Source: Eledone cirrhosa (lineage: Eukaryota). Taken from it: a stretch of 64,000 nt of DNA. Location of the stretch: assembly GCA_964016885.1 (NCBI GenBank), contig OZ024742.1, positions 362,390,001-362,454,000 of the forward strand, read 5' to 3'. Both the position numbers and the translations under genes were made by a program. This document shows positions 1,328-30,083 of this stretch, one piece after another (the first letter of the stretch is position 1; each line of letters opens with the position of its first letter). The notes beneath the pieces were generated by a model that did no database searches, was not told the origin of the DNA, and saw nothing but the letters and a program-made list of their open reading frames with translations.

Positions 1328-3587
1328 AATATATTAATAAATGGAAACTATATTTATAAAATCATATTTATTTTATTATACATATTTCAAGGGCAACCAA
1401 GGCAACCCCTTTCTCATTAAGTATTAAAACTCCTATAGCTAAATTATTCTATAAATCTCTAGATAAGTGCTTTCCTAAGACACACAGGTATTACTCTATC
1501 TTTAATAGACATACTATTAAACTCTCATATTCCACCACTATGAGTTTAGCGCAGAATAGTAATAGAATTAATAATAGAAACTTAAAACCTAACCAGAATA
1601 GCATTAATACCCCTATCAATATCCAATAATATACGGCTCCCAATAATATAAATTCAGATAAATGTAATTGTAGAAATAAATCTATCTGTCCTCTAAATAA
1701 TAATTGTTTAGTTAAAAATATAGTATACAATTGTAATGTCAAAACAAATGAAAACTCCTTTAACTATGTCAGCTTTACTTCCACAGACTTCAAATCTCGT
1801 TTTAATAACCATAAATGTTATTTTACGAATATTGGTAAAAAAATCTTCAACTTCTCTATCTAACTTATTATGGGACTTAAAATCCAAGAATATTAACTAT
1901 TCTTTACTTTGGAAAATTATCTCCAAAGCTCCTTCATACACTGCTTTATCCCAAAATTGCTCACTTTGCGTTGAAGAAATATTCTTTATACTAAAAAGTA
2001 AGAACTCTATTAATTTGCGAAATAATTTATTTAGTTCCTGTAAACATCGTTTAAACTCAACTTTTAAATATATTTATAAAATGTAATATATGATTTATCT
2101 CCTTTACAATGATTTCTATATCTATATATGATTCATATATATTTAATTTACTTTTATTATCTCTACCTCATATATATACTATACACTTTATATTATTACA
2201 CCTATCGATAGATTATGACATTTTTTTATATGACTGCTTGAAACTCCCTTAAGAAAAATTTTTCTTGAAAAACTTACGGAAGGTTTTAGGAAAAAATCTT
2301 TTGAAAATTCCTTTGAAAGATATAGAAAAACCATTATTTTCATACCTTCCAATATTTTTATATTTTTATATCTTCAAACGTTTTTAATATATATATCCAA
2401 ATGTTTATATATATGTGGAAAAATATATATATGTGGAAAAATATATATATGTGGAAAAACATATGATTTTTATATATAGGTTTTTTAAAATATATATGTG
2501 GAATAACCTATGGTTTATGCTTTAAATATGTTCTTAAGATACATTTAAAACATTTTTTTAATTTTTTAACTTTATGACTTCTTATAAAATAACATATGGT
2601 TCATGTTTTAATTATATTCTTAAGATAAAAAAATGTTTAACCTTTTAACTTTATAACATTTAATCTTTGGAGTCATCTGAGATCTTAAAAAATCACTTCT
2701 AACTTCCTTTACACTTCTTTACTGTTTTTATAATATAATTAAATGGTTATTCCTTTGTAAGCTCTCGTAAATTTTTCATAAATTTAGAATTATTTGGATG
2801 TTTAAATTTTGACTTACAACTTTTAATAAAATAAACTATACTAGATTTTCTCTAATGTAAAATACTATATATTTATTTAAATAATTTATAATCCTTAACA
2901 TGCACATTTAAACCAATATATTATTACTAATACATCTTAATATAATATAATTATTAATATTAAATTATTAAATTAAATTTTTAATATTAAGGCAAATTCT
3001 AATCTTTAATTTTGATTTCTAATTTTTTATTTTAATCTAATTTTTCAACCTATCATTATAAGTATTGTAATCAAAACGTAATGAACCCTGCATTATAAAT
3101 ATTATTCTTCCGCGTTAATCTTATTTCTTCTTTCACTTAGATATACTTACGCTGTGTATATTTCTCCTTTGAAACTTATTTCTTCTTTCACTATATCTTC
3201 ACTATCAATATGTATAATCGTTCTTTCTTTCCTCTTCTATCTTTCTCCTTTCTTTTTTGTTCTTTTCTTTTTTTCTTTTTTTCTTTTTTTCTCTCTCCCT
3301 TACATATCATCTTCTTCCAACAGTTTAATTTAAATAAACCGTTACCTTTTCAACCTTTCGGACACTCATTTGCATACTCACTCATAACTTTGTATTACCC
3401 TCAATAAATGTACTATCTCCACTATCCAGGAAGCTACAACCGTTAAGGTTGTCTTTTTTCCGGGTATGTCAATATTTATTTATAAAACAAATCTGTAAAG
3501 CAGCATAATTTGCCTTGGTTTTCCTTGAAATATGTATAATAAAATAAATATGGTTTTATAAATATAGTTTCCATTTATTAATATATT
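1328..3587 (+). mobile_element. 5'-truncated, decayed Penelope-like retroelement with an inverted copy of its 3' end at the 5' junction
   Basis: PLE-type peptide from ~1406 followed by a long AT-rich 3' region. 1328-1405 is the reverse complement of 3510-3587 (~78 bp, few mismatches). Confidence 0.8.
1406..2086 (+). pseudogene. PLE linker + GIY-YIG endonuclease remnant
   Basis: Translates as PFSLSIKTPIAKLFYKSLDKCFPKTHRYYSIFNRHTIKLSYS...CNCRNKSICPLNNNCLVKNIVY...YVSFTSTDFKSRFNNH, then a frameshift in an A-run to TSLSNLLWDLK...CSLCVEE...CKHR. In-frame TAA at ~1627. Confidence 0.85.
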
Positions 3588-7037: not shown

Positions 7038-7333
7038 CTGCTTCATAAAGTCAGTCCTTTTTCGGAGTAGTACTTTCTAGTATACATACGATCTTGTGAT
7101 CACGTGACAAACACTCTAGCCACGAGGTCACGTGCCTTTACCAATGGAGAATATAATCAAGAGTATATTGCAGGTATTGGATAATAATAATAATAATAAT
7201 ATGATCAATGTGCTGTATTAACTGGTTTACCAATGCACACTGTGAATTTATTTGCACTAGGTATCAGGAATCGGCATATATCTCAGAAACAATAATGAAA
7301 CAAAATAAAAACAACAACAACAACAACAACAAC

Positions 7334-7370
<37 letters not shown>

Positions 7371-7372
<2 letters not shown>

Positions 7373-7700
7373 TCGACACGAAAGTGCAAGAGAAGGAGAG
7401 GGAGAAAATTAACCGATACCAGGACTTAAAGTGGGAGGTAAAAAGGATTTGGACCTGCCATGAATTCAAAGTGGTCCCCATTGTCATAGGCGCACTAGGT
7501 ACTATCTCAAAAAGTTTCCAGGGATGGTTAAAGAAAATTGGCCCCTTCACGCTTTTTGGAACGCTTCAAAAGGCATGCTTGCTGGGAACAGCAAGAACCC
7601 TACGATACGTCCTGAATATCTGAGGCTGCAGGTAGTGGCTTGATATTCATTTCAACAAACTTTCCAGTTAACTAACATCAATGACTGAGACTCAAAGAAC
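7371..7700 (+). mobile_element. R4/Dong-like RLE non-LTR retrotransposon, family B, 5'-truncated copy B1
   Basis: Encodes KINRYQDLKWEV...PIVIGALGT...LQKACLLGTARTLRYVLNI (RLE C-terminus). Its 3' UTR is nearly identical to 11688-11763. Flanked by (TAA)n. Confidence 0.9.
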
Positions 7701-7730
<30 letters not shown>

Positions 7731-7731
<1 letters not shown>

Positions 7732-10700
7732 GATGAAAATGAAAGAATCTGACATGGGGCAACGAGACACCCTCCCTAAGATCCAGAACTCCAAACAGAA
7801 CCAAAAGATAATACACAAGACTAACATAATTCTCAAAAACATTATCATCACAAACAAACTAAACATTACTGATTTAAATCATCTCTATTATGCATCGGCT
7901 AAAGTCACCACTCACTTATGTGGAGTGAAGATGAAAAAACAAAGGAATTCCCACAAGAAATCTACTTGGCAAGAGAACATCAACCGCCAAATAAACCTTC
8001 TCCGATCTGACATAGAAATTTTGACAAACTATAAAGTAGGTGAACATGTTAAACAAACTAAACTTAGAAAATTGAAAAAAAACTACAGTATAAAATCAAC
8101 AAGTGACATAGACATGCTGATAGAAATAATCAAACAAAAAGTGTCAGCCAAAGCTGCTCGTATAAGGCGCTTTGAAAAACGATCTAGATTCTATAAGGAC
8201 AATAATATGTTCAAAAACAACCAAGAAACTTCTACAGAAAAATTGGTAAGTCAACAATAACTTCTAAATCAATACCACCCAAGGAGGAAGTGCAAGAATT
8301 CTGGGAAAAGATCTGGGCCGAAGAAAAAGTTCATAACATACATGCCCCATGGATAGACAGACAAATGAAAGATACAGCTCACCTTGAGGAACAAATATGG
8401 GAAAATATAACAGTTGAACAGTTGCGCTTGGCTCTAAGAAAAACCAGCAAATGGAAATCCCCAGGAAAAGACAAAATAAAAACTTTTGGATAAATGCCTT
8501 CACAGTGTCTCATGAGCTTTTAGCCCAACTTTACAATGAAATAGTTAAGGAGCCAGAAAAGATACCATCATGGCTAGTTAACGGCATTACATTCCTGCTT
8601 CCGAAGAATGATGAGACAAACAATCCCAAAAATTACAGACCGATAACTTGCTTGACCACAATGTATAAAATTTTAACATCAGTCCTAACTGAATACACAT
8701 ATGACCACCTGATAACAAATGACCTATTTCCCATTGAGCAGAAAGGGTGTAAACGAGGCTCATATGGCTGTAAGGATCAGCTTCTGGTTAACAAAATGAT
8801 ACTGGAAGATTGTCATAATAGACACAAAAATCTATCGATTGCTTGGATAGATTATAAAAAAGCATTCGATAGTTTGCCACACAGTTGGATTGAAAAATGT
8901 TTAGAGATTTTCAAAATATCCCCCGTTGTCAGGAGGTTTTTGTCATTCAGTATGAAGACATGGAAAACGACACTCCTTTTGAATAGTGAAACAAAATCAC
9001 TGGAAGCTGGAGAAGTTAATATTAATTGTGGAATTTTTCAGGGTGACTCTTTATCACCGCTTTTATTCTGCATCGCACTTATACCATTAAGTAAAATGCT
9101 CAATGAAACAAAACATGGATATAAAGTCTATGACAAAACCATTAATCACTTGTTCTACATGGATGACCTGAAACTATTTGCAAAAAATGATGAACAATTG
9201 CAAGGGCTATTATCCACTGTGAAGCAGTTCAGTGATGACATTAAAATGGAGTTTGGACTAGACAAATGCGCCAAAGCAACGTTCACCAGAGGAAAGCTGC
9301 TGAAGAGTTCAGACATTAATCTTGATCGGGGGAACGTGATAAGAGAACTTGATCAAGAAAAAACTTACAAATATCTAGGTGTTTATAAAGGAGACGGAAT
9401 CAAGCACTCGACAATGAGGGAAAGGATAAGGAAGGAATGTTACCGCAGAGTAAGAGCAATCTTAAGAACGGAATTGAATGCAAGGAATAGGATCGATGCC
9501 ATAAACACGCTTGCCATACCAGTAGTAACCTACAGTTACAATGTCATCAACTGGTCAAGCACAGAGATCCGTAGGCTCGATACAAAAATTCGAAAACTCT
9601 TAACCATGCACAGAATGCATCACCCTAAGGCAGATATAGATATAATATATCTCCCTAGGAAAGAAGGAGGACGTGGGTTAATCCAGTTAGACATTGTGTT
9701 GAAAACTGCAACAATTGGATTATCTACACATCTAAGGAAATCACATGATTGGATGATCAAACTCGTTTTGAAACACAAAAACATCAAAAGAACATACTCC
9801 ATTACAAAAGATGCACAAAGATACAGTAATGAACTACAAATTTCAGAAGTCCCATTTACTGCTGAAATGGAAAACACAGCAAAAGCAAAGCAGGTAAAAG
9901 TAACTGCAAAGAAAGAACTGCTACAGAAACTGGCTAAGAAATGGCAAGAAAAGCCTCTGTATGGAAAATACCCAGAGCGAGTTAACAATCCTGATGTTGA
10001 CAAAACTTTAACCCGTCAGTGGTTGGCATCCTCTGGACTGAAATCGGAGACTGAAGGACTGATTATATCAGCACAAGATCAGTGTCTGCCAACAAAAAAT
10101 TACCAAGCCAACATAATAAAAAATGGATGCAGCCCATTATGCCGTGTATGCAAAAAACAACCAGAGATCATTGACCATATAATTTCAATGTGCAGTCCTA
10201 TAGCTCCAACCGAATACCTAAACAGGCATGACAGAGCTGCACAATACATACATTGGATAATGTGTAAGCATTTTGACCTGCCCCATAAAAAGAATTGGTG
10301 GGAGCATCAACCACCTCCCATACTTGAAAAATATCACATCTCAATCTTGTGGAACTTTAGCATCCAAACAGACCGAAAAATAGATGCAAATAGACCTGAT
10401 ATAATATTGAAGGACTTCAAAAAAAGGTATGCCTGCTAATTGATATGTCTGTTCCAATAGACAAGAATGTATCTATAAAAACATTTGAAAAATTGAGCAA
10501 GTATAAGGACCTGGAGATAGAAATTTGAAAAATGTGGAAATTGAGAACTAAAACAATACCAGTGGTTGTAGGCGCTCTGGGAATGATACCTAAGGGGTCT
10601 AATGATTACTTATCGCAAATCCCAGGAAACCCGCGTATAGGAGAAATACAAAAGATAGTACTAATGGGAACTGCCCATATACTAAGGAAAATTCTGTCAA

Positions 10701-10849
10701 TATAAGTACATCACAAGTCTAAACACTAAAGATACATGTGTGAGTATGTATGTACTTTCTTGAACATGGCGGACCTTGTTGTCTCTTGAGGTCACTGGTT
10801 GTGACTTGGTGATAACTCGTGTGAACATAAAGCAAGATAAATGCAACTG
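7731..10849 (+). mobile_element. R4/Dong-like RLE non-LTR retrotransposon, family A, long disrupted copy A1
   Basis: RT motifs YRPITCL, DYKKAFDS, GIFQGDSLSP, YMDDLK; CCHC knuckle CRVC..HIISMC; RHD; RPDI endonuclease motif. Frameshifts near 8225, 8480 and 10425. Ends in (TAA)n. Confidence 0.92.
8451..10705 (+). pseudogene. Reverse transcriptase + zinc knuckle + restriction-like endonuclease ORF (frameshifted)
   Basis: ORF 8451-10439 has an intact YMDD. Its C-terminus continues in another frame with a premature TGA at ~10526 (GGA in copy A2). Confidence 0.88.
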
Positions 10850-10883
10850 TAATAATAATAATAATAATAATAAAAATAATAAT

Positions 10884-11763
10884 GGGATGTCCAAGGAGGA
10901 AATAACATCAAGGAGAAAGAGCAGCCTTCATGAAAAATCCCTTCATAGTACCTTCTTTAAGAAAACTAAATTTAGAGATCCACAGACATGGAACTGGTTG
11001 AAAAGAGGAGACCTTAAAAAGGCTACAGAAGGGATGTTAATGGCTGCGCAGGAGCAGGCCCTCAAAACGAAGTGGTTGAAACACCATATTTACAAGGAGG
11101 AGGCTAACCCACTGTGCAGGATCTGTGGAGAGAGAGAGGAGACGGTGGCTCACATTGTATCCGAGTGTAAACACCTAGCCCAGACTCACTATAAGGGCTG
11201 GAGACATGATGTGATGGGCAGGGTGATCCACTGGCACCTATGCAAAGTAAACAATTTACCACATTCTGAGAAATGGTATGAGCATAAGCCAGAGGCGGTG
11301 ATAGAAAAAGATCAGGTGAAGGTGCTGTGGGATTTTAGGATACAGACGGACAAGAAACTGGAACACAATAGACCTGACCTGGTGGTTGTGGACAAAGAAA
11401 AAAGATCGTGCCTGATTGTGGATGTGGCCTGCCCATTCGACACGAGAGCGCAAGAGAAGGAGAGGTATAAAATTAACCGATACCAGGACTTAAAGTGGGA
11501 GGTAAAAAAGATTTGGAACTGCCATGAAGTCAAAGTGATCCCGATTGTCATTGGCGCACTAGGTACTATCTCAAAATGTTTCCAGGGATGGTTAAAGAAA
11601 ATTGGCCCCGCCTCGCTTTTTGGAACGCTTCAAAAGGCATGCTTGCTGGGAACAGCAAGAACCCTCCGATACGTCCTGAATATCTGAGGCTGCAGGTAGT
11701 GGCTTGATATTCATTTCAACAAACTTTCCAGTTAACTAACATCAATGACTGAGACTCAAAGAG
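10884..11763 (+). mobile_element. R4/Dong-like RLE element, family B, 5'-truncated copy B2
   Basis: Open frame with TEG..MAAQEQAL, CRIC..HIVSEC, RHD, RPDL..D..CP and stop at 11687. (TAA)n on both sides. Confidence 0.92.
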
Positions 11764-11770
11764 TAATAAC

Positions 11771-11814
<44 letters not shown>

Positions 11815-11816
<2 letters not shown>

Positions 11817-12341
11817 GCACCTATGCAAAGTAAACAATTTACCACATTCTGAAAAGTGGTATGAGCATAAGCCAGAGTCGGTGATAGAAAACGATCAGGT
11901 TGAAGGTGCCATGGGATTTTAGGATATAGACGGACAAGAAACTATAACACAATAGGCATGACCTGGTTGTTTTTGACAAGGAAAAAAGATCGTGCCTGAT
12001 TGTAAATGTAGCCTGTCAATTTGACACGACAGTGCAAGAAAAGGAGAGGGAGAAAATTAAACAAAACCAGGATTTAAAGTGGGAGTTAAAAAGGATTTGG
12101 GACTGTCATGAGATCAAGGTCGTCCCGATTGTCATAGAGCACTAGGTACTATCTCAAAGCGCTTTCAAGGATGGTTAAAAAACATTAGTTCAGCCCCCTT
12201 TTTTGGAACACTTCAAAAGGCATGCTTGCTGGGAACAGCAACAAGCCTCCGATACGTCCTGAATATCTGAGGCTGCAGGTAGCGGTTTGATGTTCATTTG
12301 AACAAACTTTCCAGTTAAATAATATCAATGACTGAGACTCC
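11815..12341 (+). mobile_element. R4/Dong-like family B copy B3 (more diverged)
   Basis: Aligns by eye to 11232-11757 with many substitutions and an indel. Confidence 0.9.
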
Positions 12342-12426
<85 letters not shown>

Positions 12427-12550
12427 GCTTGCTGGGAACAGCAAGAACCCTCCGATACGTCCTGAATATCTGAGGCTGCAGGTAGTGGCTTGATATTCAT
12501 TTCAACAAACTTTCCAGTTAAATAACATCAATGACTGAGACTCAAAGAAC
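12427..12550 (+). mobile_element. R4/Dong-like family B copy B4 (3' tip only)
   Basis: GCTTGCTGGGAACAGCAAGAACCC...GAGACTCAAAGAAC matches the family B 3' end. Confidence 0.9.
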
Positions 12551-12610
12551 AATAATAATAATAATAATAATAATAATAGGCTCCGAAGTGATGGGAAGGT
12601 TTGAACCATT

Positions 12611-14322
12611 ACTTATACCATTAAGTAAAATGCTCAATGAAATAAAACATGGATATAAAGTCTATGACAAAACCATTAATCACTTGTTCTACATGGGTGA
12701 CCTGAAACTATTTGCAAAAAATGATGAACAATTGCAAGGGCTATTATCCACTGTGGAGCAGTTCAGTGATGACATTAAAATGGAGTTTGGACTAGATAAA
12801 TGCGCCAAAGCAACGTTCACCAGAGGAAAGCTGCTGAAGAGTTCAGACATTAATCTTGATCGGGGGAATGTGATAAGAGAACTTGATCAAGAGGAAACTT
12901 ACAAATATCTAGGTGTTTGTGAAGGAGACGGAATCAAGCACTCGACAATGAGGGAAAGGATAAGGAAGGAATGTTACCGCAGAGTAAGAGCAATCTTAAG
13001 AACGGAATTGAATGCAAGGAATGGGATCGATGCCATAAACACGCTTGCCATACCAGTAGTAACCTACAGTTACAATGTCATCAACTGGTCAAGCACAGAG
13101 ATCCGTAGGCTCGATACAAAAATTCGAAAATTCTTAACCATGCACAGAATGCATCACCCTAAGGCAGATACAGATAGAATATATCTCCCTAGGAAAGAAG
13201 GAGGACGTGGGTTAATCCAGTTAGACATTGCGTTGAAAACTGCAACAATTGGATTATCTACATATCTAAGGGAATCACATGATTGGATGATCAAACTCGT
13301 TTTGAAACACGAAAGCATCAAAAGATCATACTCCATTACAAAAGATGCACAAAGATACAGTAATGGACTACAAATTTCCGAAGTCCCATTTACTGCTGAA
13401 ATGGAAAACACAGGAAAAGCAAAGCAGGTAAAAGTAACTGCAAAGAAAGAACTGCTACAGAAACTGGCTAAGAAATGGCAAGAAAAGCCTCTGTATTGGA
13501 AAATACCCAGAACGAGTTAACAATCCTGATGTTGACAAAACTTTAACCCATCAGTGGTTGGCATCCTCTGGACTGAAATCGGAGACTGAAGGACTGATTA
13601 TATCAGCACAAGATCAGTGTCTGCCAACAAAAAATTACCAAGCCAACATAATAAAAAATGGATGCAGCCCATTATGCTGTGTATGTAAAAAACAACCAGA
13701 GACCATTGACCATATAATTTCAATGTGCAGTCCTATAGCTCCAACCGAATACCTAAACAGGCATGACAGAGCTGCACAATACATACATTGGATAATGTGT
13801 AAGCATTTTGACCTGCCCCATAAAAAGAATTGGTGGGAGCATCAACCACCTCCCATACTTGAAAAAGATCACATCTCAATCTTGTGGAACTTTAGCATCC
13901 AAACAGACCGAAAAATAGATGCAAATAGACCTGATATAATATTGAAGGACTTTCAAAAGAGGGTATGCCTGCTAATTGATATGTCTGTTCCAATAGATAA
14001 GAATGTATCTATAAAAACATTTGAAAAATTGAGCAAGTATAAGGACCTGGCGATAGAAATTGGAAAAATGTGGAAATTGAGAACTAAAACAATACCAGGA
14101 AACCCGCGTATAGGAGAAATACAAAAGATAGTACTAATGGGAACTGCCCATATACTAAGGAAGATTCTGTCAATATAAGTACATCACAAGTCTAAACACC
14201 TAAAGATGCATGTGTGAGTATGTATGTGCTTTCTTGAACATGGCGGACCTTGTTGTCTCTTGAGGTCACTGGTTGTGACTTGGTGATAACTCGTATGAAC
14301 ATAAAGCAAGATAAATGCAGCT

Positions 14323-22150: not shown

Positions 22151-22691
22151 CAAACATACTTTAGTCTCTATGACACCAAACATACTTTAGTCTCTATGAC
22201 ACCAAACATATTTTAGTCTCTATGACACCAAACATACTTTAGTCTCTATGACACCAAACATACATTAGTCTTTATGACACCAAACATAGTTTAGTCTTTA
22301 TGACACCAAACATACTTTAGTCTCTATGACACCAAACATACTTTAGTCTTTATGACACCAAGCATACTTTAGTCTCTATGACACCAAACATACTTTAGTC
22401 TTTATGACACCAAGCATACTTTAGTCTTTATGACACCAATCATACTTTAGTCTTTATGACACCAAAGATAGTTTAGTCTTTATGACACAAAACATACTTT
22501 AGTCTCTATGACACCAAACATAGTTTAATCTTTATGAGACCAAACATAGTTTAGTCTCTATGACACCAAACATAGTTTAATCTTTATGACACCAAAGATA
22601 GTCTAGTCTTTATGAGACCAAACATAGTTTTGTCTTTATGACACCAAAGATAGTTTAGTCTTTATACATAGTTTAATCTATGACACCAAAC
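22151..22691. repeat. 26-bp minisatellite, ~20 copies
   Basis: Unit CAAACATACTTTAGTCTCTATGACAC at 22151, 22177, and onward. Confidence 0.95.
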
Positions 22692-25040: not shown

Positions 25041-25343
25041 CTGAAAATATAGAGAAAAGATAGAAAAAGTTTCATTCAAAATATTTTCCACAAACATATA
25101 TTCTGTCGGAACTGAAAGGTAAAAACATTGTAAATGCTTTAATATCTGTTTACATGGTTTTAAAAATTTATTGCTGAATAAAATGTTGGCATATTTATTA
25201 TTGGTAATGTTTAGATGGTGCAAAATGTTTGCATTATATGGACTTAATTTTGGATTTAAATTCATGTTTCTTATTAAATATTCATGTTTCAAACATTGTA
25301 GTAAATATATTCAATATGAGCTTTTTTTAAAATTTCATTTTGT

Positions 25344-25450
25344 GCAGGCGTGTGTCTTAGTGGGTAGCGTGTTTCACTCGTGATCGTAATCTTGTAAGTT
25401 TAATTCCCAGCAGGACATTGTGTCCGGGAGCAAGACACTTTAATCCACTA
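25344..25450 (+). mobile_element. Second tRNA-derived SINE family, degenerate
   Basis: TAGTGGGTAGCG box A-like, GTTTAATTCCC box B-like, then GTGTCCGGGAGCAAGACACTTTAATCCAC. Confidence 0.5.
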
Positions 25451-25708
25451 GGCTGGACATATTAAGTTGTAAATATTATTCAAATAGCCAACATTATCAC
25501 TCGCTATAGCGCCTTACATAAAGGTTGCGGGTGTTTCATGAATGCTCAGCAACTTGTTAACATTACTATTGTACGTTTCTTTAGCCATCTAGTACATGTT
25601 TCGACAGATCATTTAGTACAAAATTGTTCCAAGTTTATATTTTAATGGACGGCTACACTCATGATAACGCCTAATCGTGTATACATACATACATACATAT
25701 ATATATAT

Positions 25709-25761
25709 ATGGAAACTATATTTATAAAACCATATTTATTCTATTATATATATTTCAAGGG
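25709..25761 (-). mobile_element. PLE 3'-terminal fragment related to 1341-1393 / 3522-3574
   Basis: ATGGAAACTATATTTATAAAACCATATTTATT..TATTTCAAGG abutting (TA)n. Confidence 0.75.
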
Positions 25762-26003
25762 TACCAACAATTTTGATACGCTATCATCAGATAAAATAAA
25801 AAATGTTTTATAAATATTTGGATAATATACCTTAAAAAAACGCAATAGATATTTTTCATATGTAAACGAAACTTCCTATGAATATAAATATACATATATA
25901 TATATATATATAATGAAAAATTGAACGGGAACAAAACAGAGAGGCAGTACAAACAAATGTTTATTAATTTCACGCTCTTGAGAGTGCGGTGGTGGTGGGG
26001 AAC

Positions 26004-26032
26004 GACGTTTCGGGCATAAGCCCTTCTTCAGG
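26004..26032 (-). ncRNA. Minimal HHR-like core in PLE pseudo-LTR fragment (~25912-26232)
   Basis: Minus strand reads CCTGAAGAA-GGGC-TTAT-GCCC-GAAACGTC with AATAAA ~40 nt downstream. Helix I is not evident. Confidence 0.55.
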
Positions 26033-26231
26033 TGAAAAGTGTGTGGGAAGAGAGTTCAAAGGGTGTGTAGGGGAGTGGTGGAGAGACATATAGCAAAAAG
26101 GAGGTGAGAGGAAACGGTGCAAATGAAATTAAAATTAAAGGCATGATCAAAATAAAATTAAAATGGGGTAAAACAGGTGGTGGAAGAGTGTGGGGCGTGT
26201 AGGGGTGGTGGCGGGTGGAGTGGGGAGAGGG

Positions 26232-26273
<42 letters not shown>

Positions 26274-26316
26274 ACGTGCGCGCGCGTGTGTATCTATCTG
26301 TCTAGCTATCTGTCTC

Positions 26317-26396
<80 letters not shown>

Positions 26397-26514
26397 TATA
26401 CATATATGTGTTCAACTCATAAGAGACCAGATTCGCTATACCATGAGCGTTATTATATATACGCACACTATTCAGTTTTCTGATATACTTAGAAGTGACC
26501 AGGATACTAATTCT

Positions 26515-26594
26515 TCACCCACTGACGAGCAAGAATCGGTAGTCCACTTCACAATTAATTTGCGAAACAGCATAGCCGAACGCTGTCTGGGTGA
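26515..26594 (+). ncRNA. Full type I hammerhead ribozyme
   Basis: Helix I TCACCCA/TGGGTGA; CTGACGA; helix II GCAA/TTGC; GAAA; helix III ACAGC/GCTGT; GUC cleavage triplet ending at 26587. Confidence 0.85.
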
Positions 26595-26940
26595 TTGGTA
26601 GTTACCACAATTCTGGTTTGTATTTATTTTCTTGATTTATTCTTAAATTGAGTCTGGCAAACCTTATTGTCCATAGTTAGTATTTTTTTCACCTTAGCGA
26701 ATCTGGTCCTTTACGATTTGAACAAATGTATGTAAATATCTGTGTTTATCTTTCTTTTATATTCAATTATGATATACGGCTCGGAAAAATCTCTTTCCTA
26801 GAGCTATTTTATTGTAAGAGACTATTTTGAGTTTCTAACTCAATATATACCTTTGATATATATATATATACAGGTAGAACACTGGAAGGTAATATCCGTA
26901 GTGGTAGAGCACTCAGTCCATGGGACAAGTTAGGTAGAAT

Positions 26941-27053
26941 TGGTAACACAACAGTTAGTTCACCATACCGAGAACAATTGTTTCACCTTAGCTGAGGATC
27001 CGCTAAGGTGAAACAATTGTTCTCGGTATGGTGAACTAACTGTTGTGTTACCA
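26941..27053. repeat. Perfect 52-bp inverted repeat, 9-nt spacer, centred on an HHR core
   Basis: 26941-26992 is the reverse complement of 27002-27053. The centre reads CTGAGGA-TCC-GCTAA-GGT-GAAA-CAATTG-TT. Confidence 0.9.
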
Positions 27054-27054
27054 C

Positions 27055-27147
<93 letters not shown>

Positions 27148-27487
27148 AGAAAAACCACAAACCCTCCATCTCAATTCGACTTTTCAAAAGCATACGAACC
27201 TTGAAACGAGTAAAGGAAATAAATAAAAATTTCTTAAAAGACTTAGTGTTTCAATACTTAATTTAAAATTGTAAAGTTTTAATTCTTTTTAATTCGCTTT
27301 AATTGTAATATTCAACATTTGATAAGATGGATTACACTGATACATTGAAACCGGGTATATCTTATATATTTTATTTACATTATAAAACTCTTATTTAAAA
27401 AAAATAAAAATTGTTCCTCTCATTTTTTCAATAATGTCATTTAGACGAATCAAAGATCCATAAATATATTTTTCGTGCTATTTCCAA

Positions 27488-27722
<235 letters not shown>

Positions 27723-27739
27723 CAATGATGTATACTTAC

Positions 27740-28584: not shown

Positions 28585-28665
<81 letters not shown>

Positions 28666-28862
28666 CGTTTCAGAATTTGTTTAGCAAAATTTTTTATCTG
28701 AAAACGTGTGTTGAAACCGAGATTGTTATGCTTTGGGAGGGTCATGTTGCCAATAAGAAACACACGCACCAGTTGCTTTCACTTCAATTTATTATAAATT
28801 TAGGAATTTATAAATTTACGGTTGGTTGGTTGGTTCCACAACCAGACGATTGTTCATACATT

Positions 28863-28905
28863 GTCAAAGTTCTTTCGTCACATATTCTGTGACCTCTTCG
28901 GTGAC
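28863..28905 (-). ncRNA. Degenerate minimal HHR in PLE 3' region
   Basis: Minus strand reads GTCA CCGAAGA G-GTCACA-GAATA-TGTGAC GAAA GAAC TT TGAC; the core has CCGA instead of CUGA. Confidence 0.6.
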
Positions 28906-29098
28906 TGGGGATTCTTTTCTTTGTTTTTGTGCCTCTCCTTTGTTCTGTCCTACGCCATCTTGTTTTTGTGTGTGTTGCGTGCTTAGTTTGCGCATATGTT
29001 ACATCCGGGTGTCTGTGTGTGTTTATATTTGTTTATTTATTTGTTTATTTACATGTTACTGGTTGGTTGTTTGTTCTATGTGTGTGTGTGTTTTGTCC

Positions 29099-29989
29099 TT
29101 AATTGTAAGTTGTGATGTTGCTATTCCATTCATGCTTTCTATTTAATTTTGGTTGGAGTTCATTTATCTTTATTGCCTCTGTGATTTGTCTAAACATTGC
29201 GTCTTTTCTGTGTGTAGATTCTATTTTTATTTCTATGTTCTCTAATTTGCCCTTATGTTCTATTTTAGCATGTTGGTAGAGTACAGATGATTCTTTACTA
29301 TCTTGAAGCTCTCGCCAGTGTTCATTTATCCGTTCCCCTATACTACGAGCTGTCTCACCTATGTACACTATATTCTTATCTCTACATTGTCCTTCAGTAC
29401 ACCTTATGCTATATACTACATTTCTAGTTTTACAGTTAATATGGGGGCTTAATTTACAGATTATACATTTCTTATCTATACAGGGAGGTCTTTGAAAAGG
29501 GCATGTATTGCTAATAAGTGTTTTTATGGAGGTACCTGGTCTTTCTACTATCTTAATATTGAGTTTATGTTTATCTAGGGCCCTTCTGAATTTGTAAGCT
29601 AATTCACCTCTAGGGGTTGTATTGATGAACATTACACTCTCGTATTTATTGCTATCATACCATGAGTTTATTCTATTAACCTGATTGCTAGTTCTTTCTA
29701 TTCTATTCCAAAATTTGCTCCTATACAAGGGGCAGGTCCGATTTGTGTCATTATTTACCATTTTTTCCCATTTGGTTCTGGCTCCTCTATATACTATGCT
29801 CTTATCTCTCTGATTGTAGCCAGAGAACTGGATACGGTGGATGAAGTATTGTATGTGTCTCTCTAGTTCTTTGGGGTTGCACATGCGGGACATGTTTCTC
29901 ATCACTCGTACCAAATCCGCAATCAGTATGTTGATTTTGGTGTGGTCCGAAACAGCTGAGTTTCGGTGGATCAGATATTTGGAAGTCAT
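29099..29989 (-). pseudogene. PLE C-terminal ORF: RT thumb/linker + GIY-YIG endonuclease
   Basis: CIDKKCIIC, CKTRNVVYSIRC, YIGETARSIGERINEH, RQITEAIKI..PKLNRKHE. N-terminal RT absent. Confidence 0.88.
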
Positions 29990-30083
29990 GGGTTTGGCAT
30001 AAGAGGAATGAGGATCTGTTTTTTGTTATTGATAGTATCTAACCAGAGCTTTTCTGATAAAATGTCTTTTAAAATATCAAATA

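What the first reader, a model, noticed from the sequence alone, without database searches (positions are those of the whole stretch)
26495..26620. Canonical-looking full type I hammerhead, antisense in an nAChR intron
Seen: all core nucleotides are present (CUGACGA, GAAA, GUC). Helix I is 7 bp and extendable via TACTAA/TTGGTA and ACCAGGA/TTCTGGT; helix II is 4 bp with a 27-nt loop; helix III is 5 bp. Unlike minimal PLE HHRs it should fold as a monomer. Predicted cleavage is after C26587. It sits in a ~470-bp island between TA tracts with no ORF, so it could be a solo pseudo-LTR or a retrozyme-like element.
Basis: partly seen in the sequence, partly recalled or inferred. Interest (0 to 1): 0.75.

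Follow-up and report, generated by a model that had tools for sequence, protein, structure and literature searches.

The report
Pseudoknot hammerhead in Penelope-type parasite repeat
This hammerhead-ribozyme motif sits in one worn copy of a roughly 500-base, protein-free repeat with at least several hundred copies in the genome, likely pasted into TA microsatellites by Penelope-type jumping-gene enzymes; it is predicted to cut the repeat's own RNA, and it faces the wrong way to cut the receptor gene's RNA.

Summary
The type I hammerhead is real: core, helices I/II/III (7/4/5 bp) and predicted cut after C26587 are as described, with 0 chance hits in 1000 simulations. It is not a lone intronic ribozyme. 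It lies in a truncated, 5'-inverted copy of a dispersed, ORF-less repeat with a 495-519 bp head-to-tail unit (376 exact-core copies; about 3,200 candidates). Insertions end in (TA)n at two fixed sites 80 nt apart, the Penelope 'tail' signature; I found no coding element bearing this repeat. Best reading: a non-LTR retrozyme (non-autonomous Penelope-like element). Helix I, helix III and the pseudoknot each show one compensatory swap. A weak excess of 5' ends at the cut site (6 of 23, p=0.02) hints at cleavage in vivo. This copy is 3.5% decayed, predicted to misfold, has one ribozyme only, and is antisense to the gene. No RNA data. The scan has noted sister families before on other DNA.

The parts
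26438..26857 (+). Main arm of the repeat copy: unit positions 98-516 of the ~516-bp unit, 5'-truncated
   Evidence: L001 1547-1966 = u98-516, 93%
26396..26438 (-). Inverted arm (u354-396), joined head-to-head to the main arm
26515..26594 (+). Type I hammerhead: helix I 26515-21/26588-94, CUGACGA 26522-28, helix II 26529-32/26560-63, GAA 26564-66, helix III 26567-71/26582-86
26587..26588 (+). Predicted cleavage site (after C17; unit 247/248)
   Evidence: weak excess of genomic 5' ends at u248; cleavage itself not shown
26504..26512 (+). 5' strand of the predicted 9-bp pseudoknot
26534..26542 (+). Loop II strand of the predicted pseudoknot; two mismatches in this copy (C26537, shared with its subfamily; G26542, private)
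26770..26776 (+). Fixed end site A (u430-436), inferred first reverse-transcription start; read through in this copy
26850..26857 (+). Fixed end site B (u516), inferred second start; the 3' end of this copy; 26777-26857 is the 80-nt 'tail'
26353..26395 (.). (TA)n target, left part
26858..26870 (.). (TA)n target, right part
25041..27739 (-). Host intron of a Cys-loop ligand-gated channel gene (context, not part of the element)

Best explanation
This is one decayed copy of an abundant, protein-free ~500-520 bp repeat whose hammerhead is predicted to cut the repeat's own RNA and which is likely copied into (TA)n tracts by Penelope-like element (PLE) enzymes, i.e. a non-LTR retrozyme. Shown: the fold's conservation, the head-to-tail unit, no ORF, two fixed ends, inverted arms, TA flanks. 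Inferred steps: (1) a copy holding two ribozymes is transcribed; (2) each type I hammerhead, braced by a loop II pseudoknot, cuts as a monomer and releases a unit-length RNA, which would be ligated to a circle; (3) a PLE RT/GIY-YIG protein nicks both strands of a TA tract and starts cDNA at two internal sites (u436, u516), usually one per strand, giving an inverted pair of arms; (4) copying runs through the cut-site junction, which would regenerate more-than-unit copies. This window's copy has one ribozyme, is predicted to misfold and is antisense to the host gene, so it is most likely a passenger with no effect on the receptor RNA.
For: Copy number: 3,269 first-look candidates (40 scored); 376 exact matches to a core pattern vs 0 for the reversed control. 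Unit 516 bp, 519 bp, 495 bp, joined head-to-tail in subfamilies 73-88% alike. 182 of 246 segments end at one of two sites. (TA)n follows 117 of 145 site-B ends and 110 of 135 site-A ends, but 25 of 96 other ends. 119 of 200 loci have a head-to-head inversion; where both arms end at fixed sites, 63 of 66 pairs use one site each. These match the PLE layout in PMC8557442 and the two adjacent internal RT starts and both-strand extension in PMC11167929. Compensatory swaps: helix I outer pair UA 52 / AU 22 and pseudoknot outer pair UA 41 / AU 30 of 81, on different branches; helix III GC 91 / AU 14 of 117. Position 17 is C, A or U in 110 of 112 copies, G in 1. Loop III carries 1.22 shared variants per site vs 0.12 in helices II and III. 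The pseudoknot duplex is stronger than the helix I extension in 97 of 107 copies. 6 of 23 inversion or flank junctions between u248 and u257 fall on u248 (p=0.023). 14 of 200 loci cross the cut site two or three times.
Against: No cleavage, expression or circle was observed. Each compensatory swap is a single evolutionary event, so the counts overstate support; one clade breaks the outer pseudoknot pair (A-A), and the window's subfamily has an A-C mismatch inside it (43 of 122). Many copies were picked by a pattern covering the core and helix II, which inflates their conservation. Helix I and the pseudoknot (0.29, 0.28 shared variants per site) are no more conserved than the 3' half of the unit (0.29). 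The cut-site excess is small, one of the six cases was seen before the test, and there is no control upstream of the site. Arrays are short (longest found 1,257 bp, about 2.4 units), unlike long satellite-type retrozyme arrays. No partner PLE was identified by homology. Only a few hundred of some thousands of copies were read.
Confidence: 0.8

Rival explanations
1. The repeat is the pseudo-LTR of an autonomous Penelope-like element whose coding copies I did not sample; the window holds a solo, truncated pLTR.
For: Every insertion hallmark is PLE-like. At L142 a copy abuts a decayed PLE ORF head-to-head with no TA spacer. Searches score only the 40 best candidates.
Against: Where a copy extends upstream of u1 it runs into the previous unit's end, not an ORF, in young and old subfamilies. 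ORF scans of 100 locus records (some are the same place) and tblastn found no in-line PLE ORF. In 45 PLE/GIY-YIG locus records, three hold unit copies, two of which I read and found separated by TA tracts. The L142 ORF ends in an unrelated terminus.
Confidence: 0.1
2. Non-autonomous PLE derivative that travels as linear, uncut multimeric RNA; the hammerhead is inherited baggage or cuts rarely, and tandems arise by template jumps or insertion into an existing copy rather than from a circle.
For: In vitro, the anole PLE inserts uncut RNA and ribozyme mutants do not affect insertion (PMC11167929). Most copies run straight through the cut site (150 of 166 keep the whole upstream ribozyme, a selected set). 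Arrays are short.
Against: Compensatory changes in three helices and variation confined to permissive positions over about 20% divergence suggest selection on the fold; weak 5'-end excess at u248. This rival overlaps the best explanation except for the circle and the role of cleavage.
Confidence: 0.3
3. The ribozyme has been co-opted to regulate the receptor gene, by cutting an antisense RNA.
For: It lies in an intron of a Cys-loop channel gene and keeps an intact core.
Against: Antisense orientation; an ordinary copy with 14 private changes in 405 sites, including ones in the pseudoknot and loop III; predicted misfolding.
Confidence: 0.03

Closest known systems
Metazoan non-LTR retrozymes (Cervera & de la Pena 2020, PMC7229834: passages plus sections 14 and 17 read; Li, Clavereau & Pollet 2026, bioRxiv 10.64898/2026.07.22.740005: parts 1-3 of 5 read)
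   Same: ORF-less head-to-tail unit, one type I hammerhead per unit, low GC (33%), coexists with PLEs, monomers dispersed through the genome.
   Different: Unit 495-519 bp (170-400 nt in the 2020 invertebrate cases; within the 51-972 bp range of 2026). Helix III is 5 bp, not 1-2. Predicted Watson-Crick loop II pseudoknot. Mostly 1-1.5-unit, inverted, TA-targeted insertions. RNA and circles not shown here.
Penelope-like element pLTR hammerheads and insertion structure (Cervera & de la Pena 2014, PMC4209133: parts 1-2 of 4; Craig et al. 2021, PMC8557442: passages; Frangieh et al. 2024, PMC11167929: parts 1-2 of 4)
   Same: Partial tandems, 5' inverted copy, optional tail between two end sites, (TA)n/AT-rich targets, type I hammerhead.
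   Different: No ORF; tail about 80 nt vs 30-40; a full three-helix ribozyme instead of the minimal dimer-type one. A large helix III was reported for fungal and protist PLEs.
Pseudoknot-braced hammerheads (Perreault et al. 2011, PMC3088659: passages; Zhan et al. 2024, PMC11300833: abstract only)
   Same: Watson-Crick pairing between stem I flank and loop II replaces the loop-loop contact; about 40% of hammerheads use one; stem II can be short (a subfamily here keeps only 2 firm pairs, 11 of 117).
   Different: Here the pairing is longer (about 9 bp) and sits in an animal mobile repeat; whether its geometry matches the solved PK hammerhead was not tested.

Membership tests
Type I hammerhead ribozyme | Core C3 U4 G5 A6 N7 G8 A9, G12 A13 A14, A15.1-U16.1, H17 | tested here: met
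Type I hammerhead ribozyme | Three helices, helix I open, II and III closed by loops | tested here: met
   compensatory swaps in I and III
Type I hammerhead ribozyme | Stem I - stem II tertiary contact | tested here: inconclusive
   9-bp pseudoknot 89-92% paired with one swap; two mismatches in this copy
Type I hammerhead ribozyme | Self-cleavage 3' of H17 | not testable with these tools
   only an indirect 5'-end excess, 6 of 23, p=0.023
Type I hammerhead ribozyme | Match to an Rfam hammerhead model | tested here: not met
   not a defining feature of the class, long loop II is the likely cause (inference)
Non-LTR retrozyme | Short head-to-tail unit with one type I hammerhead per unit | tested here: met
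   14 of 200 loci cross the cut site at least twice; three tandem pairs with both cores intact. The window's own copy is a truncated monomer
Non-LTR retrozyme | No protein-coding capacity | tested here: met
   longest stop-free frame 65 codons
Non-LTR retrozyme | Coexistence with autonomous PLEs | tested here: met
   41,181 candidates for a PLE-type protein (named from RT and GIY-YIG motifs by eye, no Pfam hit); 10,597 GIY-YIG candidates
Non-LTR retrozyme | Expressed as unit-length linear and circular RNA | not testable with these tools
   no RNA holder listed
Autonomous PLE pLTR | Repeat flanks an RT + GIY-YIG ORF | tested here: not met
   sample only, not all copies
PLE-mobilised element | Partial tandems, 5' inversion, optional tail, microsatellite target | tested here: met

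The most novel reading that the evidence does not exclude
An animal retrozyme whose pseudoknot-braced, monomer-active hammerhead makes a ~516-nt RNA circle that a Penelope enzyme copies from two fixed internal starts, one onto each strand of a TA tract. Its thousands of insertions would then be a genomic record of both in vivo self-cleavage (5' ends at u248) and two-strand PLE priming (63 of 66 inverted pairs use one site each), directly tying retrozymes to Penelope machinery.
Probability: 0.3. Interest if true: 0.65.

Novelty: new member of a known kind. Interest (0 to 1): 0.42.

Why it matters
It removes the idea of a ribozyme controlling a neurotransmitter receptor gene. It adds an octopus-like family (organism inferred, not tested) to the retrozymes, for which three literature searches showed no cephalopod report. 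That PLEs mobilise animal retrozymes has been argued from co-occurrence and pLTR homology; here the insertion ends themselves carry the PLE footprint, and the two start sites, the pseudoknot and the cut site give precise positions to test.

Tried and rejected
1) Rfam: no hammerhead hit. 2) Distal helix I extension: rejected, 55% paired. 3) A 10-20-fold step in summed contig depth across the cut site in runs X1-X3 looked like mass truncation there; rejected, because nearly all of the 100 listed genomic matches (of 549) continue into helix III (read by eye) and subfamilies with a diverged upstream part can explain the step. 4) RNA: no RNA holder listed; not evidence either way. 5) A pair of ribozymes 2.7 kb apart (L126) is a local duplication, not pLTR-ORF-pLTR. 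6) The neighbouring PLE at 28660-30025 shares no homology with the unit. 7) 5' ends over 246 segments are spread over the whole unit, with 7 in u241-250 against about 5 per bin: not significant. 8) Test of whether both arms of an insertion come from one template: inconclusive, since duplicate loci spoiled the nearest-neighbour control. 9) search of earlier findings by sequence: nothing. 10) One of the 49 matches was not fetched for (it reads as a small deletion). Supplements of the papers were not read; those of PMC8557442 and of the bioRxiv preprint (closed) may list octopus PLE or retrozyme families.

Full report
Observation. Helix I is 7 bp (26515-21/26588-94), helix II 4 bp with a 27-nt loop, helix III 5 bp with a 10-nt loop, all core nucleotides are present and C17 is 26587. 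It is the only descriptor hit in the window, and 1000 simulated 30-kb sequences gave 6 lenient and 0 strict hits. Rfam misses it. The host is a Cys-loop channel gene on the minus strand with the intron at 25041-27739, so the ribozyme is antisense and cannot cut that pre-mRNA in cis.

What it belongs to. The island is one copy of a dispersed repeat: 3,269 first-look candidates, 40 scored, best copies 91-95% alike; 376 exact matches to a strict core pattern with 0 in the control; 549 matches to a 19-mer just 3' of the cut. The full unit is 516-519 bp, 495 bp in another subfamily, 33% GC, without an ORF. Copies that extend upstream run into the end of the previous unit, in subfamilies down to 73% identity. 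The window's copy is u98-516 plus an inverted u354-396 between TA tracts. The longest direct array found was 1,257 bp.

Insertion footprint. Of 246 segments, 96 end at u511-516/u1-10 and 86 at u421-440, while 5' ends are spread over the unit. TA repeats follow 227 of 280 fixed ends but 25 of 96 other ends. 119 of 200 loci have head-to-head inversions; among 66 pairs with both ends at fixed sites, 63 use one of each (this count was prompted by earlier scan notes). PLE insertions are described with partial tandems, an inverted 5' copy, an optional tail and microsatellite bias (PMC8557442, passages), and a purified PLE protein extends both DNA strands from two adjacent internal RNA sites that define the tail (PMC11167929, parts 1-2). 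PLE-type coding sequence is abundant here. I infer PLE-driven mobility; the partner is unidentified.

Autonomous or not. ORF scans of 100 locus records, tblastn, and the reverse search in 45 PLE or GIY-YIG loci found no coding element in line with the unit. One copy (L142) abuts a decayed PLE ORF without a spacer, but that ORF ends in an unrelated terminus. This is a sample, so a rare autonomous parent is not excluded.

The fold. Across 81 aligned copies the core helices are 93-99% paired (many copies were chosen by a pattern that covers the core, helix II and the 5' strand of helix III, but not the 3' strands or the pseudoknot). The outer pair of helix I swaps UA/AU (52/22) and a helix III pair swaps GC/AU (91/14 of 117). 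TACTAA can pair either with the 3' flank (82%) or with loop II (89-92%, 9 bp, UA/AU swap 41/30). The loop II duplex is the stronger in 15 of 16 older and 82 of 91 younger copies, and in the subfamily helix II shrinks to two firm pairs while the loop II pairing is kept. On the tree each swap happened once, on separate branches, and one clade breaks the outer pseudoknot pair, so support is real but rests on few events. Such pseudoknots are common in hammerheads and needed for speed (PMC3088659, passages). Position 17 varies almost only among C, A and U, and position 7 freely.

Does it cut? Not shown. A pattern built to list copies that break between u247 and u257 gave 49 matches. Of 23 inversion or flank junctions at u248-257, 6 fall on u248, the first base after the cut (p=0.023 against an even spread; 7 of 27 with internal deletions, p=0.015). 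By hand I count 6 of 22. One case was seen beforehand. This suggests some templates were cleaved linear RNAs, while most copies read through the site, as expected from a circle or from uncut multimers; the data do not separate these. No RNA run was available.

This copy. It differs from its 20 nearest relatives' majority at 14 of 405 sites, including G26542 in the pseudoknot and G26578 in loop III. Its lowest-energy fold pairs loop II with loop III and breaks the core; the hammerhead lies 8.2 kcal/mol above the ensemble against a median of 3.4 for 65 copies (pseudoknot not modelled, and it could offset part of this). With one ribozyme it cannot release a unit RNA. It is most likely a neutral passenger.

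Verdict. A real hammerhead in a new family of a known class (non-LTR retrozyme, PMC7229834; bioRxiv 10.64898/2026.07.22.740005), with a stable helix III, a probable pseudoknot and a clear Penelope footprint. Searches for retrozyme + cephalopod, Penelope-like + octopus + ribozyme, and hammerhead + octopus showed no report of such a family; the octopus-like identity of the genome is inferred. Earlier scan notes describe sister families with the same features; they are unchecked notes, not support. Interest 0.42.

Noticed in passing
window 28660-30025 (-): 5'-truncated Penelope-like element (RT end + GIY-YIG-like motif, named by eye) ending in a TA tract; 41,181 candidates genome-wide, some with open frames over 800 aa. 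Its 3' repeat holds a different hammerhead-like motif near 28835-28909 whose core is CUGAAGA in relatives but CCGAAGA here.
   Followed up: partly
window 30258-64000: 33.7-kb array of a 15-bp unit, about 2,250 copies, 88% matches; fills over half of the window.
   Followed up: no
window 26872-27054: A second, very abundant repeat directly 3' of the element, with a near-perfect 115-bp palindrome at 26940-27054; may be another fold-back insertion in the same TA tract.
   Followed up: no
window 7257-14180: Cluster of nested non-LTR retrotransposon fragments ending in (TAA)n, including a 673-aa RT frame (PF00078).
   Followed up: no
window 1630-2086 (+): Decayed GIY-YIG-like frames resembling another Penelope-type family (by eye; no Pfam hit).
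   Followed up: no
L142:1400-3807: A copy of the repeat joined head-to-head, without TA spacer, to a decayed PLE ORF; either insertion into an old PLE or a template switch between the two RNAs.
   Followed up: partly
L186-L204: Subfamily with helix III G-C changed to A-U, loop III shrinking by (ACA)n contraction down to none, and helix II reduced to two firm pairs; some copies approach a minimal, possibly dimer-type, hammerhead.
   Followed up: partly
L257, L267, L277, L278: Internal deletions with one end at u247/248, the predicted cut site; could reflect ligation of trimmed cleavage products.
   Followed up: no
window 22151-22665 and 470-824: Minisatellites of 26 bp x 20 and 52 bp x 7.
   Followed up: no
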